Origin: a virus
Length of the DNA stretch: 64,000 nt
IMG/VR virus record: IMGVR_UViG_3300020027_000005
Location: 1-64,000 of that record
Reading direction: 5' to 3' (one strand)
Shown here: positions 12,974 through 63,780 of the stretch, piece after piece
How the letters are laid out: every line of letters begins with the position of its first letter
Position numbering within the stretch: the stretch's first letter is position 1
Position numbers and translations under genes: made by a program
Notes under the pieces: model-generated
What the model was told of the DNA's origin: nothing
Database searches by the model: none
The model's input: the letters and a program-made list of their open reading frames with translations, nothing else

Positions 12974-13495
12974 ATGAACGAATTCGAACTGCACGGCCGG
13001 GTTGTCGCACAGGCCTTCTTCCTCGAGCTCGAGAAGATTGCGATGGCCGATCCGATGGACATCGTTCACGGTCTTCGAGCAAACCAGGCTCTCCGGAGTG
13101 CAGCCTCTCCGAGTCTTGTGCAGAAGCTCAAGCCGGGAACGGGGAGCTTCTTCGGGGCCGTGAAGGACAAGGTCCGTCTTCACTTGAAGGGACGGAATGT
13201 TCGGAAGAGTGCGATCAAGGACCTCGATAGCGCTTCCAAGTACACACCGGGGGCGGATGACATCGAGGACAACGCCAACCTCGCCAGGGCTGCTCGAGGT
13301 CGGGAAGCCGAACATGAACTTCACGGGAAGCCGGGTGAGTCGAGCTTCTTCGGCGGAAAGAAGAAGAAGGAGCCGGTGAGGGGTCACCGGGCCAGGCTTC
13401 GGGACCTCGCCTTCGGTGCGGGAATCGGTGGAGCAGGCGTGATCGGCACCAGCATGTACCTGAAAGGTGGACAGGCTGAGCCCGGCTACGAGTAA
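12974..13495 (+). CDS. Basic protein with C-terminal glycine zipper
   Basis: N-terminal AFFLELEKIA; C-terminal LAFGAGIGGAGVIG; GGAG RBS. Confidence 0.8.
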   Translation: MNEFELHGRVVAQAFFLELEKIAMADPMDIVHGLRANQALRSAASPSLVQKLKPGTGSFFGAVKDKVRLHLKGRNVRKSAIKDLDSASKYTPGADDIEDNANLARAARGREAEHELHGKPGESSFFGGKKKKEPVRGHRARLRDLAFGAGIGGAGVIGTSMYLKGGQAEPGYE

Positions 13496-14214
13496 TGGAA
13501 AAGGCCGAAAAGAAGACGAGGGCGGCCCAAGAGCTCGAACTCTGGCGCGACTGGAAGGCCAACCCTTCTGACGCCACGCTCGAGCCCTTGATGGCGTCCA
13601 TGCAAAACGTTGTTCAACAGCGGGTGAACCAGTTTCGTGGAGCTCCCGTTCCACCTGCCGCTGTTCAGGGTTTTGCAAACGTCCAGCTCAAAAAGGCCTT
13701 CCATACCTACAGCCCGGACAAGGGAGCTTCTCTCGCGACCCATGCGAACTGGTACTTGAAGAAGGTCCAGACCTTCGTCATCAAGCACCAGAACATCGGG
13801 AAGATTCCAGACCAGCGAGCGAACAACATCGCCGAGTACCGAGCTGCGAAAGAGGAACTCCGAGAGACGCTGGGGATGGAGCCAGACGCTCTCTCCTTGT
13901 CGGAACATCTCGGCTGGAGTCAGCGAGAGGTCGAGCGGATGGAGGCAGAGCAGAGAAAGGACCTCATCGCTTCCAAGAACCCAGAAGCTGACCAGCTCGC
14001 CGAAACCTACTCGAACCGAGAGAGGGAAGTTCTACGGTACATCCACTACGACCTGACCCCGGATGAGCGCCTGGTCTTCGAGTACACTCTGGGGTTGTAC
14101 GGAAAGCCGCAGATCTCGGCCACCGAGATTTCGAGAAGGATGAGTATCTCTCTTCCGAAGGTCAGCCGAATTCGAGCGAAGATCGACAAGAAGCTTCGTG
14201 CCCGGGGTGTGTAG
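13495..14214 (+). CDS. Sigma70-family RNA polymerase sigma factor (group 3, FliA/SigF-like size)
   Basis: Region 2 (LKKAFHTYSPDKGASLATHANWYL), region 3 (LRETLGMEPDALSLSEHLGWS), region 4 HTH (LTPDERLVF...SATEISRRMSISLPKVSRI). Confidence 0.88.
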   Translation: MEKAEKKTRAAQELELWRDWKANPSDATLEPLMASMQNVVQQRVNQFRGAPVPPAAVQGFANVQLKKAFHTYSPDKGASLATHANWYLKKVQTFVIKHQNIGKIPDQRANNIAEYRAAKEELRETLGMEPDALSLSEHLGWSQREVERMEAEQRKDLIASKNPEADQLAETYSNREREVLRYIHYDLTPDERLVFEYTLGLYGKPQISATEISRRMSISLPKVSRIRAKIDKKLRARGV

Positions 14215-38542: not shown

Positions 38543-39156
38543 CTGCGGAAGTCCGGAGCACTCGAACCACCTTCGTGAATATCCCGTTTCAGTTCTTCGC
38601 CTCTGCGGGTCTGCTCTCGGGAGATGTTGTTCAGAGTCCTCTTGAGCTGCTCGTGCCGACTTTCCATCGCCTTGTAGTAGGTCTTGAGGCGGAGAAGGTC
38701 GGCGTCGCACTGAACGAACCTGGCGTCGGTGTTGATGTAGTCGTCTGCCAGGTTCGCCGGGATGTTCTTGTCTTTGATGTAGTAGACCCGAAGAGCCGAA
38801 CGGATGATGTCGTTCCGGCTCGTCTGGATGTCGAGGTGGCTCTTCGCCCTCGAGCATTCAGCGGTCACGTAGTTCGCCCAGTTGTGAAAGAACGTGAAGA
38901 GCTTCCCGATCTGGACCTGGTCGATCGCGGTCAGGTCCTCGGGCGGAAACGGGTCACCGTTTACTCCGAGGAGGACGATTCCTTCGAGCTCGTCGGGTGC
39001 TCCCGGGATGGCCAGGGTGTGGGAGACTCCGGCGTCGGCCAGAGCTGCATCCACATCCGGGAGAATCCCATCGTAGATCTGGAGGAGTTCCTCCACCTTG
39101 AGGTTCTTCGCAACCGAGAACCTTCCTCCCCCGCCTACCTGCGTGTCGTCGCTCAT
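38539..39156 (-). CDS. Helical protein, possibly UvsY-like recombination mediator
   Basis: C-terminal DYINTDARF...coiled coil...ISREQTRR; in the same operon as recA. Confidence 0.45.
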   Translation of the reverse strand: MSDDTQVGGGGRFSVAKNLKVEELLQIYDGILPDVDAALADAGVSHTLAIPGAPDELEGIVLLGVNGDPFPPEDLTAIDQVQIGKLFTFFHNWANYVTAECSRAKSHLDIQTSRNDIIRSALRVYYIKDKNIPANLADDYINTDARFVQCDADLLRLKTYYKAMESRHEQLKRTLNNISREQTRRGEELKRDIHEGGSSAPDFRR

Positions 39157-40397
39157 CGTTGAAACATCCTGTCGACGCTGGGTGGAACGAGTTCTGGCTT
39201 ACAGATCCAGCTGTACTTGCAAGCCTTGCAGTAGGAGTCTTTTCCAGAGATTCTTTGAGGAAGCTCCTTTTTGTCCACGGCCTGGATGATTCTGGTCGCC
39301 CGAGTAGCGATGCGATGCCAGACGTTCCTGTCTACGGGGATTCGGTAGACCGTGATTTCTGCGGTCTCTTTGCACACGTAGATGTACGAGACAGCGTCCA
39401 GGCCGAGGTTCGCTGCGTAGATGGTCGCCTGCTCGATGTGTTCTTGTTTCGGCTTCGTGAGTGTCGAGTGGCCGAGAAGGGAGATGGTCTTGATCTCCAT
39501 TCCTTCTTTCTGGTCGACCCCGTCGCAGCTGCCGAAGATCCGGAGATTCTTGTTCTTTGCAGGAACCTCTGCTCTGAAGTGCGGGAGGGACCAGGACAGC
39601 GCCTTCTGGACGATGTCGTGGTAGATGTGGCCGAGGTCGAAGATCCTTCGGAGCTTCTTGAACCGAAGGGATTCCCGCTCCAGTTCCTCCTCTCCCGACA
39701 ACCCGTAGGCGATCTTCCGGTCGCAGGGGGATGTCGAAATTTCGGAGGGATGGATGACGTTCCTCTCCCGGTGCTTCGTTCCTCCGTCGAGGTTCTTGTC
39801 TGTCCCGATGGAGGAAATGAGGGTGTTCATCTTGTCGGTGAGAGGCTGGTTCGGAGTCGTGACCAGGCCCGTCCAGGCCGGGACAGAGTCTCCTCGAACT
39901 GCGGCCTGCATGTAGGTGTGGGCGGTCTCGAAGTCACCGGTCACCGTGTACCAGAACCACGACTGGTTGCTTCGGTCGAGGGCCCCGATGTTCAGCTTCT
40001 GGAACCCTTCGATGTGAGCTTTCGCTCCCGCGGGGATCGCCAGTCTCGGGTCCAGGAACCCCGTCCTGAAGTCGAGAGTGGATACGACCGCCACGTCGAG
40101 CATCGTGTCTCCAAGGCTGCCCGCGAAGGTCGTGAAGGCCTTGTCCGACATCGTGAGAGCGTGGCCACGGGAGAAGGTTCCTCTGTTGGCGGCAGCGAGG
40201 TAGTTCGTGAGCAGTTCTCTCTGCTCGAGTTCGGCTGCTCGCATCAACGCGAAACGCTTGTTCTCATTCGTGGGTACAGCACTCTGGCTGAACGCACGCT
40301 CTACCGAGGAGGGCTGGACCAACTCCTCCCACAGGTACTGCCCCTGTGCCCCGTACTCGGCCCACAGGGAGTCATAGATCACTTCCCGAAGATTCAT
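39153..40397 (-). CDS. Cas4-like PD-(D/E)xK exonuclease with N-terminal extension
   Basis: HPSEI..C.RK; G.IYH; GSCDG..EIKT; Q...Y; C-terminal CKACKYSWIC (four-Cys Fe-S staple). Confidence 0.85.
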   Translation of the reverse strand: MNLREVIYDSLWAEYGAQGQYLWEELVQPSSVERAFSQSAVPTNENKRFALMRAAELEQRELLTNYLAAANRGTFSRGHALTMSDKAFTTFAGSLGDTMLDVAVVSTLDFRTGFLDPRLAIPAGAKAHIEGFQKLNIGALDRSNQSWFWYTVTGDFETAHTYMQAAVRGDSVPAWTGLVTTPNQPLTDKMNTLISSIGTDKNLDGGTKHRERNVIHPSEISTSPCDRKIAYGLSGEEELERESLRFKKLRRIFDLGHIYHDIVQKALSWSLPHFRAEVPAKNKNLRIFGSCDGVDQKEGMEIKTISLLGHSTLTKPKQEHIEQATIYAANLGLDAVSYIYVCKETAEITVYRIPVDRNVWHRIATRATRIIQAVDKKELPQRISGKDSYCKACKYSWICKPELVPPSVDRMFQR

Positions 40398-53532: not shown

Positions 53533-53545
53533 CTACCTTATGCGC
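53533..53545 (-). promoter_or_regulatory. Candidate phage promoter motif GCGCATAAGGTAG
   Basis: In the divergent gap heading the whole minus-strand operon. Confidence 0.62.
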
Positions 53546-53575
53546 CCGAAAATCACTTTCGGTTGGAGTGCTTCG

Positions 53576-54661
53576 ATGCGAAAGTATGAAGCGGCAACCC
53601 TGGACTTCTACGATGACCGGGGAATCCTCCTCCGAGAGTTGATCGAAGACCCGAAGGACATTCCGGACTTCGTGAAGACCGCAGAGGCTGTGGATCAAAA
53701 CGCGCACTCGGAGCTGTTCGCCCTGGTTCTTCACGAGGACGGTCACCTCTTCAAGAAGTTCGCGACAGCGGATGCAGGGAACACCTTTCTGTCGACGCTC
53801 TACTTCTCGCAGACTTTCGACAGACTGCCGGAGGAGGCCCAGAAGATCGCTGCGGTCAACCTGGTCCAGGCCTGCGAGGCCTTCGACATCGGAGTTCCGG
53901 ACTTCCTGCTCGATCTCCTCGGCGAAGCTGAAGTGGGACCGATCGGGTCGAACATCGTGGACGTCTCGGGTCGGTCTCCTCCGATGCAGAAGGTCGCCCA
54001 CGAGGACGAACCCGTGGAGTACGCCGTTGTCCGCCCGAACGGAGAGAAGTTCTACCCGCTGCGGGATGCGTCGAGCGTGAAGCTCGCGAGTGACTTCTTC
54101 GCCGAGAACCACATGAGGATGGTTCCGAAAGAGCGGAGGCAGTTCGCGGTCAAGGTGGCGAGTCTCGCCAAGAAGGGCGCCCTCCCCGTCTCCGAGCCCA
54201 TCAAGAAGTACGCCGGGACCGACTACGGAGCCCTGGTTGAAGGCCACCTCACTACCAGGTACCTGCACCTGGTGGACGCAGGGGCGAACCCGACGGTGAC
54301 GGGAGTTCTCACGAAGCTTGCGAACTTGCGGAGCAAGCTCGAGCCCGAGGACTTCGCAGCTGTCCTGGAGCAGTTCGACATCGACCAGGGTCTCGACGCA
54401 CTCTGGGACCGTGGGGTGGCCGACCCCTGGTACTCGACCTTCGCGAACGAGAAGAGGGCCGAGGCCGCACTCTCGGTCGGGTTCATCACCCGGGATGAGC
54501 TCCAGAAGCTGGCTCAACGAGCGGACCAGCTCCACCCCTTCTTCCAGGAGGAAGTGATCACGGCTTTCCGGGACGATCCGGTGGTTGTGTTCGAGTCCAT
54601 GCCCCTGCCCATGAAGCAGCTCATCGGTCGGATCTCCGAAGGCACTCTTTCGGCAGGGTAG
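53576..54661 (+). CDS. Hypothetical head-associated protein with repeated K-x-A motifs
   Basis: GGAG RBS before ATG 53576; KTA, KFA, KIA, KVA, KLA, KRA recur; two genes upstream of the portal-like gene. Confidence 0.75.
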   Translation: MRKYEAATLDFYDDRGILLRELIEDPKDIPDFVKTAEAVDQNAHSELFALVLHEDGHLFKKFATADAGNTFLSTLYFSQTFDRLPEEAQKIAAVNLVQACEAFDIGVPDFLLDLLGEAEVGPIGSNIVDVSGRSPPMQKVAHEDEPVEYAVVRPNGEKFYPLRDASSVKLASDFFAENHMRMVPKERRQFAVKVASLAKKGALPVSEPIKKYAGTDYGALVEGHLTTRYLHLVDAGANPTVTGVLTKLANLRSKLEPEDFAAVLEQFDIDQGLDALWDRGVADPWYSTFANEKRAEAALSVGFITRDELQKLAQRADQLHPFFQEEVITAFRDDPVVVFESMPLPMKQLIGRISEGTLSAG

Positions 54662-54664
54662 AAC

Positions 54665-55333
54665 GTGCCTGAGCCTCTTGTTCGCAGAGCCGGTCTTCTC
54701 GAAGACGAACAGGGTCTGCACCTCATCACTCTGAGTGTGCTTCTGCTCGATCTACTCGGGCCGGAGTACTTGTTCTGGACTTCTGAGGCGCTCCGAGAAG
54801 AGCTCCAGGAGAGGTACGGGAAAATCGGCGTCGTGACCTGGGAGCGGGTTCAGGCACTCCGAATTCTCCACGTCCATGACGCCTACTGGCAGGAGTGGGA
54901 AGTCTTCGAGAAGGTCACGGCTGCCATCTGTGGAGAGCCTCCGATCTTCAGCCTGGTTCAGCCACAGGAAGCAGAGGAAGTGTTCATCTCTCTGTCGACG
55001 GCTTCGCGAATCGACCAGCATGACTTCGACGAAGATGTTCGGAGCTACATGGTGGCGGCGTGCCTGAACGACGGGCTCTGGTATTTCGAAGAGCCCGTCG
55101 CAGCGGTCGGAAGTTCGGAGCTCGTGGAGTTGGACACTCGACAGGGGATTCAGAGACCATTCGGGCTCATCTCGGCAGAACTCGAAAAGTCCAACAAGTT
55201 CCGTCCGGAGTCAGACGACCCTGTGCTCACCCAAGTGAATCGGGTTCTAGAGGTGCGGCAGGCGCTTCGACTGTACAATGAGGCGGTCGATAGGCAGCTG
55301 CTCCAGCTCCCACAACTGCTGAAGGGTGTTTGA
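54665..55333 (+). CDS. Hypothetical protein
   Basis: Coupled to the portal-like gene. Confidence 0.75.
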   Translation: MPEPLVRRAGLLEDEQGLHLITLSVLLLDLLGPEYLFWTSEALREELQERYGKIGVVTWERVQALRILHVHDAYWQEWEVFEKVTAAICGEPPIFSLVQPQEAEEVFISLSTASRIDQHDFDEDVRSYMVAACLNDGLWYFEEPVAAVGSSELVELDTRQGIQRPFGLISAELEKSNKFRPESDDPVLTQVNRVLEVRQALRLYNEAVDRQLLQLPQLLKGV

Positions 55334-57246
55334 TGGCGGGCATTGGGACAACTGGATTCGGACCCGGAAGCGCTTCCCGGTTTTCGAACAACCAGTCGAC
55401 AACAGGGAACAACGTTCGATACCCGTCCCCCTGGTGGGACATTTCGAACATGGACCTTCCGAGGTCCGTGAAGCACCTCTTCAAGTGGTGCCTCTACCAT
55501 GTTCTCGTGAATCCACTCGTTGCTCCAGTTGTTCGGAAGATGGCGGCCTACCCCATCACCGAAATCATCATCGAGGACGAGCCGCACGAAGGCTTCCAGA
55601 AGCACAAGGAGCGGTGGGAAGACTGCCTCTTCAAGACCCTGAACATCGACCAGTTTCAGCTGGAGATCGGGCTCGACTACCACGGCTACGGGAATGCCCT
55701 GGTCTCGCTGCTCACTCCGTTCCACAAGGTTCTGACCTGCACCCACTGCAAGTACGAGGAGCGGATCAAAAAGCTGAAGTTCGGTGAGGTGTGGGACTTC
55801 AAAGAGTTCAAGTTCATCCTGCACTGTCCAAAATGCAAGATGAGTGCGACCGCGAAGGTCGACGATGTATCGTACAGGTCTTTCCGGGACTTGAAGATCA
55901 TCCGATGGAACCCGGCAGACATCGACATTGATTTCAACCCGATCACTCGAGTGGCCGAGTACGCGTACAACATTCCGGAACGGGTGAAGACCAAAATCCT
56001 CCGGAAGAACAAGCGCTACTTGGAAGAGATTCCACAGGTCATCTTTCAGGCCATGAAGGAGCAGCGAGCTGTCCTTCTGAACCCAGACAACCTGTACCAC
56101 TTCAAGGCCCCGACTCCGTCTCTGCCGTCGAGTGACGAAGGGTGGGGCTACCCGCCGATCCTTCCGGCATTGAAGGACTCGTTCTACTTGCAGCAGATGA
56201 AGAAGGCGCAGGAGATGGTGCTTCTCGAGCACATGCTCCCACTCGACATCTTCTTCCCGGCTTCAGCCGACGCGAATGCGAATCCCTATCAGATGATCAA
56301 CCTCCACGACTGGAAGCAGCGGGTGGAGGCGGAGATCACTCGCTGGAAATGGGACCCGAACTACAAGCCCATCATGCCCATTCCCGTCGGGCATCAGCGA
56401 ATCGGAGGGAACGGAAAGGCCCTCATGCTCACCCAGGAGATTCGAGCCTGGTCCGAGCACATCATCGCTGGCATGGGAGTTCCTCAGGAATTCGCTTTCG
56501 GTGGTCTGACCTGGTCCGGGTCCAGCGTCTCTCTCCGGATGCTCGAGAACCAGTTCTCGAACTACCGGTCGATGCATGAGAATTTCCTGCAGAACTGGCT
56601 CATCCCCAGGATCGCCAACTACATGGCGTGGTCTGAAATCTCCATCCATCTCCGTGACTTCAAGATGGCCGACGACATGCAGCTCAAGCAGCTGCTGATC
56701 ACGTTGAACCAGATGAAGAAGATCTCCGACAAGACCCTCCTCGCCGAGTTCGGGCGTGATGCGCTCGAAGAGTCGAAGCTGATGGAGCAGGAGATGCAGC
56801 GCCAGATGCAGATGCAGCGGACGCAGATGATGTACACGACCCAGATCCAGGTCGAAGCTTCGGCGATCCAGATGAAGGGCCAGATGAAGATGCAGGAACA
56901 GCAGATGAAGGCCCAGCAGAAGGCGATGGGTGGCCAGGCTGTGGATCCGCAGACTGGAATGCCGATGCAGGGTGCCCAGGGCGGAGGAGTTCCAGGCACT
57001 CCGGCGCAGGGTCCGCAGGGTGGACAGGAAGGCCAGAGCGTCGATGTACGTCAACTCGCAGAGGCGTACGGGAAAAAACTGGCGAACATGCCTCCAGAGC
57101 AGGCAGCCCCGATCCTCCATCGGATGTCCCAGGAGAATCCGCAGCTCCATATGCTCGTGATGCAGGCCATGCAGACGAACACGACTGCGGACATGCGCCC
57201 TCTGCCGGAACAGCGCCCTCCGACACGAGAGACGGGACTGGTCTAG
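55333..57246 (+). CDS. Putative portal protein with Zn-ribbon insertion
   Basis: NPLV..VV.KMA.YP; DY..YGNA.V; LYHFK...WGYPPI; IIAGMGVP.EF..G; Q/M-rich tail. Confidence 0.65.
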   Translation: MAGIGTTGFGPGSASRFSNNQSTTGNNVRYPSPWWDISNMDLPRSVKHLFKWCLYHVLVNPLVAPVVRKMAAYPITEIIIEDEPHEGFQKHKERWEDCLFKTLNIDQFQLEIGLDYHGYGNALVSLLTPFHKVLTCTHCKYEERIKKLKFGEVWDFKEFKFILHCPKCKMSATAKVDDVSYRSFRDLKIIRWNPADIDIDFNPITRVAEYAYNIPERVKTKILRKNKRYLEEIPQVIFQAMKEQRAVLLNPDNLYHFKAPTPSLPSSDEGWGYPPILPALKDSFYLQQMKKAQEMVLLEHMLPLDIFFPASADANANPYQMINLHDWKQRVEAEITRWKWDPNYKPIMPIPVGHQRIGGNGKALMLTQEIRAWSEHIIAGMGVPQEFAFGGLTWSGSSVSLRMLENQFSNYRSMHENFLQNWLIPRIANYMAWSEISIHLRDFKMADDMQLKQLLITLNQMKKISDKTLLAEFGRDALEESKLMEQEMQRQMQMQRTQMMYTTQIQVEASAIQMKGQMKMQEQQMKAQQKAMGGQAVDPQTGMPMQGAQGGGVPGTPAQGPQGGQEGQSVDVRQLAEAYGKKLANMPPEQAAPILHRMSQENPQLHMLVMQAMQTNTTADMRPLPEQRPPTRETGLV

Positions 57247-57366: not shown

Positions 57367-57552
57367 TCAGGCGGGGTCCGGAGTGCTGTCCTCGCTCTTT
57401 CCACGATCGTCAGCGTCATCATCGACGCTCCAGAGCGACTCCCGCAGTCTTTGGTCGACCACGGACTGCCCTTGAGTAGTCTCCTCCTCTTCCTGTTCCC
57501 GCTTCTTCTTCCTCTTCTCTTCCTCGGTCATCGATTCTCCAGAAGCCGACAT
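57367..57552 (-). CDS. Small charged protein (61 aa), antisense islet
   Basis: GGAG RBS; K/R-rich then D/E-rich; preceded by GCGCATAAG. Confidence 0.55.
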   Translation of the reverse strand: MSASGESMTEEEKRKKKREQEEEETTQGQSVVDQRLRESLWSVDDDADDRGKSEDSTPDPA

Positions 57553-57568
57553 TGTTGGCTCCAACATT

Positions 57569-57577
57569 CTTATGCGC
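57569..57577 (-). promoter_or_regulatory. Candidate promoter motif GCGCATAAG
   Basis: Intergenic, 16 nt upstream of the minus-strand ATG at 57552. Confidence 0.55.
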
Positions 57578-57609: not shown

Positions 57610-60600
57610 ATGTCGAACTTGAGCCCGGAAATGCAGTTCGAGTCGCTGAAGTCCAGCCTCTCCGGGACCCTGAAGGGAATGTTTCCCATCGAGACGAGGG
57701 GTGGGAATTCCATCGTCCTCGAAGAAGTGGAGTTCAAGGACGAGAAGGGCAGCGGAGACCTTCGGGAGCAGCAGAAAGCTCTCCGTGAGGCCAAGAGCTG
57801 GTCCATTCCGGTCTACGGAACCTTCAGCACGAAGAACAAGAACGGAACGGAGACCGATCGGAAGCGCGTTCTGATGATGCACCTGCCTCGTACGACTGAT
57901 CGTTTCGGGTACATCGTCGATGGGAACGAGTACCAGATCCTCAACCAGTTTCGACTGAAGTCTGGTGTGTACCACCGGATGGCTCCAGACGGAGATGCGC
58001 TCGCAGAGTTCAATCTCGCGAACTCGGACCAGTTCGCAAACGGAAAGAGCTTCAAGCTCAGATTGGTTCCGAAGACTGCGGTCTTCTACGTCGACCACCG
58101 CAATTCGAGTGTCCCGCTCTACCCCCTTCTCAAGTCTGTCGGAGTGACCGACGAAGATCTCGAGAAGGCGTGGGGAAAGGAAATCCTCGAACGGAACCAG
58201 GCGAAGGGAGCAGAAGCTCGGTCGTTCGGAGCCCTCCGTCGGGCTGTGGGTGCAGAGCTCCCCGGCGTAGATGGCTCCGAACTTTTCGGGAAGCTGCTGG
58301 CCAAGACGAAACTCCTTCCGGAGACCACGGAGAAGACTCTCGGAAAGGCCTACGCGTCCGTGACTCCGGAGTTGTTGGCCCAGAGCACGAAGCAACTCCT
58401 GGAACTCTCTCGTGGAGCTCGGGCCGAGGACGATAAGACCTCTCTCGAATACCAGGGGATGTACTCGGCGAACGACCTGCTCTCTGGCCATCTCCAGAGG
58501 AAGGCAGGTCTGATCAAAAGGAAGATTCAGACGAACCTGGAGAAGAAGAAGGGTGTTCGGTTGATCGTGCCGACGGACACGTTTGACCAGGCTCTTCGGT
58601 CCTTCTTCTCCACTTCCCTGGTCTCGCAGCCCGAGCAGACGAATCCTCTCGAGATGCTCTCTGGAGCACTCAAGACGACGATCATGGGGGAGCAGGGAGG
58701 CATCAAATCCAGCTTCGCGATCTCCGAGAATGCGAAGCTCGTGAACCCTTCTCACCTGGGATTTCTGGACCCGATCCACACGCCAGAAGGTGAAAAGACA
58801 GGCGTGTCTCTTGCGCTGCCTCTCGGGGCTGGAAAGCGAGGGAACGAGATCGTCTCCACCTTCTGGAATGCGAAGACCAAGAAGCGGCAGGAGATCTCTG
58901 CTGGAGAGGCACTCCACGCCACCGTGGCTTTCCCGGACCAGTACGTTCAGAAGGGTTCGGGGATGTCTCCGGTCGCTCCGAAGGTGAAGGCGACGAAGGA
59001 CGGGAACATCGTCTACGTCAGCCATCGGGAGGTCGACTACGTCATCCCGAGTCCGCGAGCAGTATTCGGAGTCTCCTCGAACCTGATCCCGTTCTTGCAG
59101 AACAACCAGGGCAACCGAGCGATGACAGCAGCTCGGCAGCAGGAACAAGCAGTTCCTCTTCTCTACCGTGAGGAGCCTCTGGTCCAGGTGAAGACCGACG
59201 GAAAGGCGACCTTCGAGGAGATCCTCGGAGAGAGCTCTGCTCGGAACTCCCCTGTGGATGGGGAGATTCTTCGTGTTGAGAGAGACGCCATCATCATCAA
59301 GGACAGCAAGGGCGAGAAGCACGAGATTCAGTTCTACAAGGACTTCGCGCTCAAAGGGAACACCCTCTACGACTCCGACGTGAAGGTGAAGGCCGGAGAC
59401 AAGGTGAAGAAGGGAGACCTTCTCGCCGACACGACGTTCACGAAGAATGGGAAGCTCGCTCTCGGTACCAATCTTCGAACTGCCTACATGGCGTTCAACG
59501 GGTACAACTTCGAGGATGGCATCGTTATTTCTGAGGACGCTGCCAAAAAGCTCACAAGCCTACATGTCCATCAGAAAGACATCCCGTTCGACACGGACAC
59601 TGTGCTCGACAAGAAGAAGTTCCTCTCGCAGTACCAGTATGGGTTCGGGAAGGAGCAGCTCGAAAATGTGGGCGAGGACGGAGTCATCAAGGTCGGCTCC
59701 CGCGTGAAGGAAGGAGATCCTCTCCTCCTGGCTCTGAGGAAGCCGAACGAGTCGCAGCTCCGCAAGCAGATCATGGCCTTCCGGCGAGGGCGTCCCGACA
59801 AGTTCCGGGACGGCTCACTGGCTTGGGACCACGAGGCTCCCGGCATCGTCACGGACGTGGTGAAGCGGGGAGACCAGGTCGTGGTCTACGTGAAGACCGA
59901 GGAGCCTGCGCAGGTAGGTGACAAGCTTGTAGGGCGGCACGGGAACAAGGGAATCATCACGCGAGTGGTTCCGCAAGCAGAGATGCCCTACTCCACGGAC
60001 GCGAAGGGCGAGAAGCAGCACGTCGATATCCTCATGAACCCCCTTGGGGTCCCCGGGCGTATCAACCTCGGCCAGATCCTGGAGACGGCTGCTGGGAAGA
60101 TCGCCACAAAGACCGGGAAGACCTACGAAGTCAAGAACTTCGAACACGGGAAGGACTACCTCACCGACATCAAGGCAGACCTGAAGAAGAACGGGCTCTC
60201 GGATAAGGAAGCCCTCTTCGATCCGACGACCGGAAAGCACTTCGAACAGGAAGTGATGACCGGGAATCAGTACATCTTGAAGCTGAAGCACATGGCTACG
60301 AAGAAGATCTCCGCCCGCTCGGGCTCGGGCGGTGAGGGATCCTTCTACGACGTGAACCATGCCCCGAGTTCGGGAGCCCCTCACGGTGGACAGGCCATGG
60401 ACCCGCTCGGGCTCTACGCCCTGTTGGCTCACGGAGCTCGCGAGAATATCTCGGAGATGTACACCTACAAGTCGGACAAGAACGACGCCTTCTGGGACGC
60501 TATCCGGGAAGGGGCACCGATTCCGCCCCCGAAGACGCCGTTCGTGTACGACAAGTTTCTCAAGTATATGAACGCGCTTCGCGTGGATGTGAAGAAGGAA

Positions 60601-63600
60601 GGGAACTCTCTTCAGCTGATGCCGTTCACCGAACAGCAGGTTCTGGAGATGAGCTCTGGCGAATTGAAGGAACCCTCCCTCGTGGTTCGAGGAAAGGACC
60701 TGAAGCCTCTGCCCGGAGGTTTGTTCGACGAGAAGCTCACCGGCGGAAAGGAGGGAACCCGGTGGACGCACTTCAAGCTCGCCGAGCCTATGCCGAACCC
60801 GATGTTCGAAGAGGCGATCAAGAAGTTGACTGGACTCTCTGACAACCAGTTCAGGAGCCATATCCGGGGCGATGTCGAGGTCAACGGTAAGAAGGGAGGT
60901 GAGGCGGTCGAAGAGCTTCTCAAGCGCATCAACGTGAAGAAGCTGCGAGAGGACCTCGAGTCGAAGATCGGAAAGGCCAAAGGTGCTGGTCGAGACAAGC
61001 TCCACCAGCAGTTGAGAATCGTGAAAGCCTTGGACGAGGCCAAGCTCTCCCCCACGGTCTACATGATGCGGAGTGTTCCGATCCTGCCTCCGATCTTCCG
61101 ACCGGTTTCGGCGAAGCCGGATGGTTCACTCTCGTCTGACGATCTCAACGGCCTGTACAAGGACATCGGGGCCGTGAATGAGTCGCTGACTCTTCTGAAG
61201 TCGTCCGACATTCCGCAGTCGATCGTGGCGCCCACTCGGATGGAGCTCTACGATGGGCTCCGGGCCATGACCGGACTCGGTGGCTCCCTGACTCGGGAGT
61301 ACCGCGGAATCCTGGATATCATCTCTGGGAAAACACGCAAAGGCGAGTCGGCCGGTGAAGGATCCAGCAAGGGTGGGTTCTTCCAAAAGTCCGTGATGAA
61401 GCGCCGTCAGGACTTCTCGGCTCGATCCATCATTACTCCCGAGCCCCGTATGGGAATCGACGAGATCGGTCTCCCGCAGGAGATCGCCTGGACGATGTAC
61501 CAGCCCTTCATCGAGAAGGAGCTCATTCGTCAGGGCTACAAGCCGCCGGACGCTATCGATGAGGTTCGGAAGCGGACTCTGGTTGCGGAGAAGGCGCTCT
61601 TCAGAGCAGTCGAAGACAGACCCGTTCTTCTGAAGCGTGACCCGGTTCTTCACAAGTTCAACGTGATGGCGTTCAAGCCGAGACTCGTGAAGGGAAAGGC
61701 AATCGAAATCCACCCCCTCGTCACCGGTGGGTTCAACGCCGACTTCGACGGCGACACCATGTCGGTCTTCCTTCCGGTCACCTCTCCAGCAGTGAAGGAG
61801 GCCCAGAACCTCTACCCGTCGAACAACCTCTTCAGCCCGACCACGGGCGCGGTCATGTACACGCCCGGTCACGAGGCCCTGCTCGGTACCTACCTGCTCT
61901 CCCTTCCCGGGAAGAAGACTGGAAAACGCTTCAAGAACACCGAAGACGCCCAGTCTGCTCTTCGGAAGGGAGAGCTCAAAAAGACTGACATCGTTCGAAT
62001 CGGTGGGCACGAGACCACTCTCGGCCGACTGGAGATCGAGGCGAAGCTTCCAGCCTGGCTCCAGGAGACAGGGAAGAAGCCGGTTTCTGAGATGCGGATC
62101 TACGACAACAAGACCACCAAGGGCTTGTTGATGCAGGTCGCGAAGCGGGACCATCTCAAGTACGGGGAGATTGCGAACCACCTGAAGGACATCGGAAACG
62201 AGAACTCGACGAGAACCGGATTCTCGATCGGACTCTCGGACTTCGATGTTGTGAATAAGGTGGGTCGAGACAAGATCATCGCGGCTGCAGAAAAGCAGCA
62301 GGTGAAGATCAACAGCTCGAAGCTCTCTGTGCAGAAGAAGGAGGAGAAGGTCGTCGAGGTTCTGACGAAGGCGAAGGACCAGCTCGAGGACCTCTACAAC
62401 GCAGGCCTCAAGAAGGACCCGACGAACATCTACAAGATGATGATCTCTGGTTCTCGGGTGAGTCCCGGACAGTTGAAGCAGATCGTCTCTTCGCCTGCCC
62501 TGGTCTCGGATTCGAAAAACAGAATGGTGCCATATATTATCCCCAGGTCGTACTCCGAGGGGATGGACATGGCGTCGTACTGGACGACCATGCACGGCGC
62601 TCGGAAAGGCGCACTTCAGAAGACCCAGGAGGTCTCGAAGCCTGGCGCACTCTCGAAGCTCCTCGTGAACTCGACCATCAACCAGCTGGTGACCGAGGAG
62701 GACTGTCGAGCCGGGGACGGGATCACGATGTCGGTCGACAACCACGACGTGGCCGACCGCTACCTGGCTGCACCCGCTCGATTCGGAGGAAAGCGAATTC
62801 GGGCTGGAGAGCTGATCACTCCGGAGCTCCTGGCCCAGGCCCGAAAGGCCCAGGTCAAGACGCTTACGGTTCGAAGCCCTCTTCGGTGCCAGGCAGAGCA
62901 TGGTGTCTGCAGACACTGCATGGGTCTGACGGAGGGAGGGAAGAGCTACGACATCGGAACGAACATCGGGGTCATCGCCGCACAGGCCGTAGGTGAGCCT
63001 AGCACCCAGCTCTCACTGTCGGCATTCCACACTGGAGGAACTGTTGGTTCCCGCGGTTCGCAAGCAGTTTCGACCTTCGGCCGGTTGAGCCAACTCCTCA
63101 CCGTTCCTCGGAACATTCCGAACGAGGGGGCTCTGGCGCTTCATGCAGGGAAGGTCACGAGCATCGAGGATGCTCCGCAGGGCGGCCAGTACGTCTACAT
63201 CAACAAGACCCAGCACTACGCCCCTGCGACACAGAAGCTCCAGATCAAAAAGTTCGACACCGTGAAGGCTGGGGATGAGCTCACCGACGGAGTCACTGAT
63301 CCGAAGAAGCTCCTGGCTCTTCGGGGTGTTCGGGACACGCAGGACTACCTGACGAGGTCGATGATGGAGGTGCTTTCGGAAGTAGCACCGGTGAAGCAGC
63401 GCAATGTGGAAGTCGTCGTTAGGTCGATGACTGATATCGCCACGGTCGAGGATCCGGGCGGGCATCCGGACTGGACCTCTGGAGATGTTCGGCCGGTTTC
63501 CATCATCGCTGCATGGAATGCGAAACATCGAGGCAAGGGGAAGCCGGTCAAGTACTCCACTCTCGTGAAGGGCGTGGACGTTCTTCCGAATGAGATGCAG

Positions 63601-63780
63601 GAGGATTGGATCGCTCGACTCAACTTCCAGAACCTCTCTCGAACTCTGACCCAGGCTTCTCGAGAGGGGTGGCACGCCAACATCCACGGCTTCAATCCCA
63701 TTCCGGCCGCAGCACAAGGTGCAGAGTTCAACAGAGCAGAGCGGAAACTCAAGCCGGGGGAACATAAAGGCCAGTACTGA
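57610..63780 (+). CDS. rpoBC: Fused DNA-directed RNA polymerase beta-beta-prime (single chain, 2056 aa)
   Basis: Beta motifs: HLGFLDPIHTPEG, LIPFL, GYNFEDG, GDKLVGRHGNKG, NPLGVPGRINLGQ, KLKH, GGQ. Beta-prime motifs: LPP.FRP, DFSARS.I, NADFDGD (61735-61755), HGARKG, RSP..C...GVC..C.G, AAQAVGEPSTQ...FHTGG. No internal stop. Confidence 0.97.
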   Translation: MSNLSPEMQFESLKSSLSGTLKGMFPIETRGGNSIVLEEVEFKDEKGSGDLREQQKALREAKSWSIPVYGTFSTKNKNGTETDRKRVLMMHLPRTTDRFGYIVDGNEYQILNQFRLKSGVYHRMAPDGDALAEFNLANSDQFANGKSFKLRLVPKTAVFYVDHRNSSVPLYPLLKSVGVTDEDLEKAWGKEILERNQAKGAEARSFGALRRAVGAELPGVDGSELFGKLLAKTKLLPETTEKTLGKAYASVTPELLAQSTKQLLELSRGARAEDDKTSLEYQGMYSANDLLSGHLQRKAGLIKRKIQTNLEKKKGVRLIVPTDTFDQALRSFFSTSLVSQPEQTNPLEMLSGALKTTIMGEQGGIKSSFAISENAKLVNPSHLGFLDPIHTPEGEKTGVSLALPLGAGKRGNEIVSTFWNAKTKKRQEISAGEALHATVAFPDQYVQKGSGMSPVAPKVKATKDGNIVYVSHREVDYVIPSPRAVFGVSSNLIPFLQNNQGNRAMTAARQQEQAVPLLYREEPLVQVKTDGKATFEEILGESSARNSPVDGEILRVERDAIIIKDSKGEKHEIQFYKDFALKGNTLYDSDVKVKAGDKVKKGDLLADTTFTKNGKLALGTNLRTAYMAFNGYNFEDGIVISEDAAKKLTSLHVHQKDIPFDTDTVLDKKKFLSQYQYGFGKEQLENVGEDGVIKVGSRVKEGDPLLLALRKPNESQLRKQIMAFRRGRPDKFRDGSLAWDHEAPGIVTDVVKRGDQVVVYVKTEEPAQVGDKLVGRHGNKGIITRVVPQAEMPYSTDAKGEKQHVDILMNPLGVPGRINLGQILETAAGKIATKTGKTYEVKNFEHGKDYLTDIKADLKKNGLSDKEALFDPTTGKHFEQEVMTGNQYILKLKHMATKKISARSGSGGEGSFYDVNHAPSSGAPHGGQAMDPLGLYALLAHGARENISEMYTYKSDKNDAFWDAIREGAPIPPPKTPFVYDKFLKYMNALRVDVKKEGNSLQLMPFTEQQVLEMSSGELKEPSLVVRGKDLKPLPGGLFDEKLTGGKEGTRWTHFKLAEPMPNPMFEEAIKKLTGLSDNQFRSHIRGDVEVNGKKGGEAVEELLKRINVKKLREDLESKIGKAKGAGRDKLHQQLRIVKALDEAKLSPTVYMMRSVPILPPIFRPVSAKPDGSLSSDDLNGLYKDIGAVNESLTLLKSSDIPQSIVAPTRMELYDGLRAMTGLGGSLTREYRGILDIISGKTRKGESAGEGSSKGGFFQKSVMKRRQDFSARSIITPEPRMGIDEIGLPQEIAWTMYQPFIEKELIRQGYKPPDAIDEVRKRTLVAEKALFRAVEDRPVLLKRDPVLHKFNVMAFKPRLVKGKAIEIHPLVTGGFNADFDGDTMSVFLPVTSPAVKEAQNLYPSNNLFSPTTGAVMYTPGHEALLGTYLLSLPGKKTGKRFKNTEDAQSALRKGELKKTDIVRIGGHETTLGRLEIEAKLPAWLQETGKKPVSEMRIYDNKTTKGLLMQVAKRDHLKYGEIANHLKDIGNENSTRTGFSIGLSDFDVVNKVGRDKIIAAAEKQQVKINSSKLSVQKKEEKVVEVLTKAKDQLEDLYNAGLKKDPTNIYKMMISGSRVSPGQLKQIVSSPALVSDSKNRMVPYIIPRSYSEGMDMASYWTTMHGARKGALQKTQEVSKPGALSKLLVNSTINQLVTEEDCRAGDGITMSVDNHDVADRYLAAPARFGGKRIRAGELITPELLAQARKAQVKTLTVRSPLRCQAEHGVCRHCMGLTEGGKSYDIGTNIGVIAAQAVGEPSTQLSLSAFHTGGTVGSRGSQAVSTFGRLSQLLTVPRNIPNEGALALHAGKVTSIEDAPQGGQYVYINKTQHYAPATQKLQIKKFDTVKAGDELTDGVTDPKKLLALRGVRDTQDYLTRSMMEVLSEVAPVKQRNVEVVVRSMTDIATVEDPGGHPDWTSGDVRPVSIIAAWNAKHRGKGKPVKYSTLVKGVDVLPNEMQEDWIARLNFQNLSRTLTQASREGWHANIHGFNPIPAAAQGAEFNRAERKLKPGEHKGQY

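What the first reader, a model, noticed from the sequence alone, without database searches (positions are those of the whole stretch)
57610..63780. Phage-encoded single-chain, streamlined bacterial-type beta-beta-prime RNA polymerase
Seen: one uninterrupted ORF carries the conserved beta blocks (about aa 1-995) and runs directly (ALRVDVK-KEGNS-LQLMPF, about 60575-60627) into beta-prime with an intact NADFDGD. At 2056 aa it is roughly 700 aa shorter than E. coli beta plus beta-prime. Known: rpoBC fusions occur in Helicobacter and Wolbachia. phiKZ-like phage RNAPs are split into more pieces, and crAss-type single-chain enzymes are far more divergent. Inference: this is a distinct phage RNAP lineage captured from bacteria, fused and minimised. 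Its location beside the portal-like gene suggests it could be virion-packaged. No alpha or omega gene is in the window.
Basis: partly seen in the sequence, partly recalled or inferred. Interest (0 to 1): 0.92.

Follow-up and report, generated by a model that had tools for sequence, protein, structure and literature searches.

The report
Single-chain phage RNA polymerase with sigma
An uncultured large phage encodes both big subunits of a bacterial-type RNA polymerase as one 2056-residue protein next to its portal gene, plus its own sigma factor and no alpha or omega; it probably carries the enzyme in the virus particle to start transcription without the host enzyme.

Summary
Window 57610-63780 (+) is one uninterrupted 2056-aa ORF, collinear with bacterial beta (aa 1-998) and then beta' (aa 999-2056). 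All catalytic motifs are intact.

The contig is viral: an IMG/VR record that is about 44% of a roughly 175-kb phage.

The enzyme belongs to a large clade with more than 120 metagenomic protein clusters. The clade includes cultured Salmonella phage Arash and Vibrio phages D69/D148/D181. In those phages the enzyme is split in mid-beta'. In Arash it is the most abundant hit in the virion proteome.

In my trees the clade lies outside all 24 sampled bacteria, so no donor can be named. The Arash-type split is nested inside the single-chain forms, so it is secondary.

About 470 of the roughly 690 residues "missing" relative to E. coli are E. coli lineage-specific inserts. True losses are the beta' zinc-binding domain and the termini. 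The only four cysteines are the second zinc site.

No alpha or omega gene exists in this contig or in five complete relatives. A sigma-70-family gene (13495-14214) is conserved in all of them.

The best reading is a virion-carried, sigma-dependent, alpha-free polymerase.

This scan found the same family before on other genomes. I found no paper describing the design.

The parts
57610..63780 (+). Single-chain beta-beta' RNA polymerase gene (2056 aa, P0001)
57610..60603 (+). beta module (aa 1-998). It is collinear with bacterial beta and lacks the E. coli inserts 228-345, 936-1046 and 1123-1176.
58603..58701 (+). Rifampicin-pocket cluster I equivalent (aa 332-364). Substitutions at the E. coli positions: D516E, H526G, R529K, S531T.
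59917..59952 (+). beta double-psi barrel motif GDKLVGRHGNKG (aa 770-781; E. coli K1065 and K1073 are conserved)
60577..60639 (+). beta/beta' junction (aa 990-1010). The end of beta joins beta' residue about 18 through K-E-G. G998 and P1005 are invariant in the family.
60604..63777 (+). beta' module (aa 999-2056). It lacks the ZBD, beta' 139-171, SI3 (942-1132) and the last 27 aa of E. coli beta'.
60748..60759 (+). Site of the deleted beta' zinc-binding domain. E. coli C70/C72/C85/C88 are replaced by GGK-EGT.
61735..61755 (+). Catalytic NADFDGD (aa 1376-1382)
62704..62919 (+). Second zinc site, C1699/C1760/C1767/C1770. These are the only cysteines in the protein.
62965..63045 (+). Trigger loop (aa 1786-1812). 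H936 equivalent is kept, M932L and R933S are substituted, and there is no SI3 insert.
55330..57246 (+). Portal protein (638 aa). It is 30% identical to Arash portal gp204 (E 1e-93). A homologue lies upstream of the RNAP on the same strand in 35 of 49 family loci.
13495..14214 (+). Sigma-70-family factor (239 aa), the probable specificity subunit of this polymerase
53540..54661 (+). Conserved 373-aa gene upstream of the portal (22 family loci). Function unknown; mixed helix and beta-hairpin model with no informative fold match.
54665..55333 (+). Conserved 222-aa gene upstream of the portal (24 family loci). The model is almost all helical (two short strands), unlike my recollection of the alpha/beta alpha-NTD fold.
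57569..57575 (-). One of seven GCATAAG motifs, all on the minus strand: a candidate phage promoter element. The others are at 53537, 49749, 47342, 45354, 40873 and 10305.

Best explanation
The gene encodes the complete catalytic core of a bacterial-type (two double-psi-barrel) RNA polymerase as one polypeptide. The end of beta joins beta' residue about 18.

It belongs to a large clade of roughly 175-210-kb tailed phages. These phages carry one such polymerase gene next to the portal gene. They also carry a conserved sigma-70-family factor and no alpha or omega.

Most likely mechanism. The covalent beta-beta' link replaces the alpha-dimer assembly platform. The phage sigma docks on the retained clamp helices and flap tip to give a two-polypeptide holoenzyme. 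That holoenzyme is made late, packaged in the capsid and injected with the DNA. It then transcribes phage genes independently of the host polymerase. Candidate promoters are the GCATAAG-type sites in front of the minus-strand replication genes.

What is shown here: the ORF, its domain content, the intact catalytic motifs, the phage context, the clade, the sigma gene, and the absence of alpha and omega genes.

What is inferred: alpha-independence, the sigma partnership, packaging (by homology to Arash only), the promoter identity, and rifampicin insensitivity (from substitutions at the D516, H526 and S531 equivalents).
For: - ORF and domains.
- Catalytic residues, the second zinc site, clamp helices and flap tip are all present.
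- Viral record, 44% complete. Phage replication genes and a baseplate gene. Portal orthologous to Arash gp204.
- Family size and architectures.
- There is one RNAP locus in each of five complete relatives.
- No PF01000, PF01193 or PF01192 match over cut-off in this contig or in the five complete relatives; controls matched in 14 of 14 genomes.
- Sigma gene. It is conserved in 5 of 5 complete relatives at 35-43% identity. It is homologous to the Arash sigma gene (E 3e-12); the paper lists a sigma, Gp10, in the virion. Its profile hits 61 sigma chains in PDB, best 2e-11. It matches phrog_351 at 1e-10.
- Arash gp206, gp216 and the sigma Gp10 are abundant in the virion proteome (PMC10585845).
- The protein has only 4 Cys in 2056 aa, all zinc ligands. 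The family median is 4, against 22 in E. coli beta plus beta'. This would fit an enzyme kept in an extracellular particle, which is my inference.
- GCATAAG occurs 7 times, all on the minus strand, against 1.26 expected; 0 of 100 shuffles reach 7.
Against: - Packaging rests on one cultured relative at about 30% identity. The Arash authors themselves note that abundant enzymes might be carry-over.
- Alpha-independence is untested, and the host alpha dimer could still be recruited.
- The sigma-polymerase pairing is inferred from co-occurrence only.
- The clamp helices and flap tip are strongly diverged.
- The contig is a fragment, so further transcription genes of this very phage cannot be excluded.
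- The GCATAAG sites have no mapped transcription starts, and two of the seven lie inside genes.
Confidence: 0.6

Rival explanations
1. The single chain still needs the host alpha dimer (and perhaps omega). It would be a phage-encoded replacement for beta/beta' that assembles on host alpha2 after infection, not a self-sufficient enzyme.
For: The protein is much closer to bacterial beta/beta' (E 1e-104) than phiKZ-type enzymes are. By my recollection, cellular RpoBC fusions (Helicobacter) still use alpha.
Against: If the enzyme acts from the virion at time zero, it would have to find host alpha after injection. By my recollection of the literature, phiKZ/AR9 enzymes work without alpha, and a recent review states that phage multisubunit RNAPs lack alpha, sigma and omega homologues. 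Identity to all bacteria is a uniform 26-30%, which argues against co-evolution with one host's alpha.
Confidence: 0.2
2. It is a non-virion polymerase, made during infection for middle or late genes. Early genes would then be read by the host polymerase.
For: There is only one polymerase per genome, so it must serve at least the later classes. The Arash authors caution about carry-over of abundant proteins.
Against: It is the top spectral count in purified Arash virions, with sigma also present. The gene sits beside the portal on the same strand in 35 of 49 loci. Cysteine is depleted to the four zinc ligands.
Confidence: 0.15
3. It is a recent capture of a host rpoBC operon, later fused and trimmed.
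For: It is collinear with bacterial beta/beta' and keeps the gene order beta then beta'.
Against: All 24 sampled bacteria (about 14 phyla, including CPR) form one side of a 100%-supported branch that excludes the phage clade. The best bacterial identities are uniformly 26-30%. Divergence within the clade is itself deep, down to 28-34% identity.
Confidence: 0.05
4. It is an artefact: a cellular contig, or a chimeric assembly that joins rpoB to rpoC.
For: None found.
Against: IMG/VR virus record. Phage hallmark genes. The same junction occurs in more than 100 independent assemblies, with invariant junction residues.
Confidence: 0.01

Closest known systems
RNA polymerase of Salmonella phage Arash (gp206 + gp216, with sigma Gp10; OQ632216, PMC10585845) and of Vibrio phages D69/D148/D181
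   Same: Same clade in both trees. The same beta-to-beta' junction. The same portal-then-polymerase gene order. A homologous sigma gene. The beta' zinc-binding domain is also lost.
   Different: Arash and the Vibrio phages split the protein after the equivalent of aa about 1465, into roughly 1525 aa plus 606 aa. The window's enzyme is one chain. Identity is only about 30%. The paper annotates 'beta' and 'beta'' subunits and reports their virion abundance. In the RNAP passages I read, it does not describe the fusion, the missing alpha or the class.
Cellular RpoBC fusions (Helicobacter and Wolbachia, from general knowledge; a Paceibacterota example at L105)
   Same: The beta C-terminus is fused in frame to the beta' N-terminus.
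   Different: Those are cellular enzymes with alpha and omega and with full-size subunits. The CPR fusion groups with bacteria, not with the phage clade.
phiKZ/AR9-type multisubunit phage RNA polymerases (PMC7598289, PMC7824862)
   Same: Phage-encoded relatives of cellular beta/beta' with no alpha or omega. One set is virion-packaged for early transcription.
   Different: Those are split into 4-5 polypeptides, come as two paralogous sets, have no sigma-70-family factor and are far more diverged. Here there is one chain, one set and a recognisable sigma.
Cobetia phage Carin-5 / Yersinia phage YerA41-type polymerases
   Same: Phage-encoded, near full-length bacterial-like beta and beta' with an adjacent sigma gene.
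   Different: They have separate genes in the order beta' then beta, keep the zinc-binding domain, and form a separate branch.
Coliphage N4 virion RNA polymerase
   Same: A functional analogue: a giant single polypeptide packaged in the capsid and injected to transcribe early genes.
   Different: It is a T7-like single-subunit fold, unrelated in sequence and structure (general knowledge; PMC4496689).
crAss-like gp66 / YonO single-chain two-barrel polymerases
   Same: Both barrels lie in one chain. crAss gp66 is virion-packaged.
   Different: Those keep only the barrels and a DFDxD motif. Here the whole bacterial domain series is recognisable by Pfam.

Membership tests
Bacterial-type multisubunit RNAP catalytic core (beta + beta') | beta' Mg-binding NADFDGD | tested here: met
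   aa 1376-1382, invariant in the family
Bacterial-type multisubunit RNAP catalytic core (beta + beta') | beta barrel motif GDK..GRHGNKG (E. coli K1065, K1073) | tested here: met
   aa 770-781
Bacterial-type multisubunit RNAP catalytic core (beta + beta') | Collinear Rpb2 and Rpb1 domain series above Pfam cut-offs | tested here: met
   Rpb2_6 224 bits, Rpb1_2 96, Rpb1_5 75, Rpb2_3 29 and Rpb1_4 29 are over cut-off. Rpb1_1 (38.3 against 39.7) and Rpb1_3 (22.5 against 28.9) are just under.
Bacterial-type multisubunit RNAP catalytic core (beta + beta') | beta' N-terminal zinc-binding domain (four Cys) | tested here: not met
   E. coli beta' 66-100 is deleted and there are no Cys there. The same holds in all clade members shown in the alignment.
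Bacterial-type multisubunit RNAP catalytic core (beta + beta') | Second beta' zinc site (C814, C888, C895, C898) | tested here: met
   C1699, C1760, C1767 and C1770, invariant in A1
Bacterial-type multisubunit RNAP catalytic core (beta + beta') | Alpha dimer and omega encoded alongside | tested here: not met
   No PF01000, PF01193 or PF01192 match over cut-off in the contig or in five complete relatives; controls matched in 14 of 14. Use of host alpha is not excluded.
Arash-like phage RNAP clade | Groups with Arash gp206+gp216 to the exclusion of bacteria | tested here: met
   Support 100 (FastTree) and 99 (IQ-TREE SH-aLRT)
Arash-like phage RNAP clade | Gene lies downstream of the portal gene on the same strand | tested here: met
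   (35 of 49 loci)
Arash-like phage RNAP clade | Cognate sigma-70-family gene | tested here: met
Arash-like phage RNAP clade | Enzyme present in purified virions | not testable with these tools
   Known only for Arash itself
Arash-like phage RNAP clade | beta' split into two polypeptides after aa about 1465 | tested here: not met
   The window enzyme is unsplit. The split clade is nested among single-chain forms.
phiKZ/AR9-type phage multisubunit RNAP | beta and beta' each split into two or more polypeptides | tested here: not met
   One ORF
phiKZ/AR9-type phage multisubunit RNAP | Two paralogous sets (virion and non-virion) | tested here: not met
   One locus in each of five complete relatives. 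The window's own contig is a fragment.
phiKZ/AR9-type phage multisubunit RNAP | No sigma-70-family factor | tested here: not met
   Sigma is present
crAss gp66 / YonO-type single-chain two-barrel RNAP | Only the barrels are recognisable; there is no beta/beta' accessory domain series | tested here: not met
   The full domain series is present
Cellular RpoBC fusion | Cellular genome context and placement within bacteria | tested here: not met
   Virus record, outside the bacterial branch. Helicobacter and Wolbachia themselves were not in the tree.

The most novel reading that the evidence does not exclude
This would be a self-sufficient bacterial-type transcription machine made of just two polypeptides: the beta-beta' single chain plus a small sigma. 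It would need no alpha or omega and would travel in the virion. It would be injected with the DNA and read GCATAAG-type promoters, insensitive to rifampicin. The lineage would be as deep as the bacterial radiation itself. That would make it the simplest natural sigma-dependent multisubunit-type polymerase, and a window on how the alpha platform can be dispensed with.
Probability: 0.4. Interest if true: 0.85.

Novelty: new variant of a known kind. Interest (0 to 1): 0.68.

Why it matters
The phage multisubunit-type polymerases characterised so far (phiKZ, AR9) are fragmented, lack sigma and are very diverged. The single-chain ones (crAss, YonO, P23-45) keep little beyond the two barrels.

This clade is the opposite case. 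It is a near-complete bacterial core in one chain, paired with a recognisable sigma, without alpha or omega, and probably packaged in the virion.

- It offers a tractable two-component system for asking what alpha, omega and the beta' zinc domain are for.
- It is a candidate orthogonal sigma-dependent polymerase for synthetic biology.
- It is a deep branch that is useful for the history of RNA polymerases.
- The clade is abundant in aquatic metagenomes and has cultured members (Arash, Vibrio phages), so experiments are possible now.

Tried and rejected
- Megablast of window 40000-64000 against the phage collection gave no match.
- PHROGs gave nothing for the portal or for 18 other large ORFs, most of them probably structural. 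The portal was identified only by BLASTP against Arash gp204.
- The search for related loci with the single protein found only one locus. The alignment query was needed.
- The first MAFFT run timed out. I redid it with a faster mode.
- Search for a hidden alpha-like subunit. I took the two genes conserved upstream of the portal (222 aa and 373 aa). Their profiles had no PDB sequence hit. Their models are almost all helical (222 aa) or mixed helix and beta-hairpin (373 aa). Foldseek gave nothing at E <= 0.001. VIA-align wide, run on the 373-aa model only, gave just generic helical-bundle matches at Z < 6. This is inconclusive and no alpha-like fold was seen.
- tblastn of the 373-aa protein against phages gave no match.
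- Five literature searches and three reviews gave no description of a fused beta-beta' phage polymerase with sigma. The 'moraphage' paper (PMC12619734) concerns phages without any polymerase gene.
- A sigma-70-type promoter and terminator scan around the gene was at chance level.
Full report
**1. Observation.**
Window 57610-63780 (+) is one ORF of 2056 codons with an ATG start. Pfam finds the beta domains Rpb2_3 and Rpb2_6 at aa 342-904. It then finds the beta' domains Rpb1_1 to Rpb1_5 at aa 1126-1946.

phmmer against all PDB chains returns only bacterial beta' (best 1e-104) and beta (8e-90). The beta half aligns to cyanobacterial beta in one stretch (aa 56-994 to chain residues 70-1054). It aligns to Thermus beta in three collinear pieces. 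The beta' half aligns to Clostridioides beta' residues 169-1131, plus a weak N-terminal piece.

**2. Context.**
The whole assembly is one 76,482-bp contig without terminal repeats. It is an IMG/VR virus record that CheckV rates 44% complete, which implies a genome of roughly 175 kb.

The window carries a DNA polymerase A, a primase, a DnaB-type helicase, a UvsX-like recombinase, other helicases, a Cas4-like exonuclease and a baseplate wedge protein.

The ORF just upstream (55330-57246) is 30% identical to the portal gp204 of Salmonella phage Arash, E 1e-93. So the contig is a phage fragment, not cellular DNA.

**3. Relatives and architectures.**
The protein database holds more than 120 clusters of full-length homologues. 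They are 2030-2100 aa long and 41-73% identical, on contigs of up to 199 kb. IMG/VR adds dozens more at 28-58% identity, several on complete genomes of 178-210 kb.

I surveyed the ORF structure of every locus:
- Most members are single chains.
- Some are 2372-3008 aa because of inserts of 300-500 aa at catalytic motifs. The sites are after aa about 394, 435, 784, 955, 1385 and 1808. LAGLIDADG or intein Pfam hits mark several of them, so they are inteins.
- Two loci (L023, L044) have in-frame TGA codons only. This suggests TGA is read as sense there.
- One sub-clade is cut after the equivalent of aa about 1465. It includes the cultured phages Arash and Vibrio D69/D148/D181. The two pieces are about 1525 aa and about 610 aa.
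- A different class has separate genes in the order beta' then beta. It includes Cobetia phage Carin-5, and I group Yersinia phage YerA41 with it from the hits. Carin-5 also has an adjacent sigma gene.

**4. Phylogeny.**
I concatenated the beta and beta' parts of 61 sequences. These were 25 single-chain, 6 split, 6 Carin-5-type and 24 bacterial sequences from about 14 phyla including CPR. The alignment kept 1958 columns.

FastTree puts all bacteria on one side of a branch with support 100. The single-chain plus split phage sequences form one group, also at 100. The split sub-clade is nested among single-chain forms. IQ-TREE (LG+G4) on 37 taxa gives the same picture, with SH-aLRT values of 100, 99 and 96-100.

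The best bacterial matches among 185,579 species genomes are uniformly 26-30% identical and come from many phyla.

Three conclusions follow:
- The clade is a distinct lineage.
- No bacterial donor can be named.
- Rooting on the bacterial branch, full fusion is ancestral and the Arash-type split is secondary. In D181 and D148 a homing endonuclease gene lies under the match that spans the two pieces, which hints at how the split arose.

Caveats: these are quick tree searches, many rows have a biased composition, and the root is not inferred.

**5. What is missing.**
I aligned the protein to E. coli beta and beta' through the family alignment. The gaps are:
- beta 228-345 (betaSI1), beta 936-1046 (betaSI2) and beta 1123-1176;
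- beta' 942-1132 (SI3);
- beta' 66-100 (the zinc-binding domain) and beta' 139-171;
- a few gaps of 12-18 residues;
- beta residues 1-23, beta' residues 1-17 and the last 27 residues of beta'.

The four large inserts (471 aa) are lineage-specific by general knowledge (Lane and Darst 2010). 'Streamlined' is therefore mostly 'core only'. The real losses are the zinc-binding domain and the termini.

**6. What is kept.**
- NADFDGD and GDKLVGRHGNKG.
- The bridge helix and the trigger-loop histidine.
- The four cysteines of the second zinc site.
- The clamp helices, rudder region and flap tip. By general knowledge the clamp helices and flap tip are the two sigma-docking modules. Both are diverged here.

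The four zinc cysteines are the only cysteines in 2056 residues. The family median is also 4 (range 0-5, n = 107). E. coli beta plus beta' has 22.

At the rifampicin pocket the positions equivalent to E. coli D516, H526, R529 and S531 read E, G, K and T. By analogy with known resistance positions, this predicts insensitivity to rifampicin.

**7. Partners.**
PF01000 and PF01193 (alpha) and PF01192 (omega) give nothing over cut-off in this contig or in five complete relatives, two of which have terminal repeats. The same searches match 14 of 14 control genomes. Each complete relative has a single polymerase locus.

A 239-aa gene at 13495-14214 was flagged by other first-stage notes on this genome. 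I tested it in several ways:
- Its Pfam hits are weak sigma-70 regions 3 and 4.
- It matches phrog_351 'sigma factor' at 1e-10.
- It is conserved in all five complete relatives at 35-43% identity.
- It is homologous to the Arash gene annotated 'RNA polymerase sigma factor', E 3e-12.
- A six-sequence profile hits 61 sigma chains in PDB, best RpoS at 2e-11, covering regions 2 to 4.

I treat it as the specificity subunit.

**8. Virion packaging.**
The Arash paper (PMC10585845) reports Gp206 as the protein with the most spectra in purified virions (3516). Gp216 has 1210, and the sigma Gp10 is detected at 100% coverage. The authors suggest early transcription but also mention possible carry-over.

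Three observations here fit packaging without proving it:
- the conserved position beside the portal gene (35 of 49 loci);
- co-orientation with the plus-strand block that also holds the baseplate and sigma genes;
- the cysteine depletion.

**9. Candidate promoters.**
GCATAAG occurs seven times in the window, always on the minus strand, against 1.26 expected. In the whole contig 12 of 13 G[CA]ATAAG sites are on the minus strand. Several lie 1-90 nt upstream of minus-strand starts, often followed by nTAG. This lead came from earlier notes. I tested only the enrichment and the positions.

**10. Search for a hidden alpha.**
Two genes conserved upstream of the portal (373 aa and 222 aa) gave no PDB sequence hit and no informative fold match. 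Neither model looked alpha-like. This is inconclusive.

**11. Literature.**
Searches and three reviews did not turn up a description of this design. The passages of the 2026 jumbo-phage review that I read state that phage multisubunit polymerases lack alpha, sigma and omega homologues.

This scan has met the same family on several other genomes. Other follow-up agents reached the same reading. I arrived at mine before reading theirs.

**12. Verdict.**
This is a real and interesting variant of phage-encoded cellular-type RNA polymerase. It is not unique to this window, and the Arash annotation and proteome partly anticipated it. As far as I could find, it has not been characterised.

Noticed in passing
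window 57367-57567 (-): A small minus-strand ORF lies in the 363-bp gap between the portal and polymerase genes. It is 66 aa, or 61 aa from a second ATG with a GGAG 8 nt upstream, and is very acidic/basic. It starts 1 nt after a GCATAAG motif. Arash and D69 have a small plus-strand gene at this position instead.
   Followed up: partly
L012, L016, L028, L031, L042, L051; P0010, P0032-34, P0065, P0093, P0099, P0102, P0106, P0107, P0118: Family members carry one to four 300-500-aa inserts at catalytic motifs: after aa about 394, 435, 784, 955, 1385 and 1808 of the window protein. Several have LAGLIDADG or intein Pfam hits. This clade appears to be an intein hot spot.
   Followed up: partly
L023:10178-15953 and L044:10148-14327: Two relatives have only TGA as in-frame stops inside the polymerase gene (four or five and three, respectively). 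This suggests phages or hosts that read TGA as sense.
   Followed up: partly
L105:163-7014: A Candidatus Paceibacterota (CPR) MAG contig has rpoB and rpoC as one 2284-aa open frame. It is a cellular fusion that groups with bacteria in the tree, not with the phage clade.
   Followed up: partly
L145: A contig of a MAG labelled 'uncultured Gammaproteobacteria' carries a short beta (1082 aa) and beta' (1275 aa). It branches at the very base of the bacterial group, far from the other Proteobacteria. It may be mis-binned or from an unusual lineage.
   Followed up: no
window 53540-54661 and 54665-55333 (+): Two genes of unknown function are conserved upstream of the portal in 22-24 family loci. The 373-aa model contains a repeated beta-hairpin plus two-helix unit. 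No structural match was found.
   Followed up: yes
L170 (Cobetia phage Carin-5, PV155638) and IMG/VR loci L050, L052-L057, L061-L063: This is a second, separate class of phage polymerases. It has near full-length beta' and beta in reversed gene order, a retained zinc-binding domain and an adjacent sigma gene. Contigs range from 25 to 277 kb.
   Followed up: partly
window 39153-40397 (-): A Cas4-domain / RecB-like exonuclease gene sits in the replication module (phrog_1706 4e-25).
   Followed up: no
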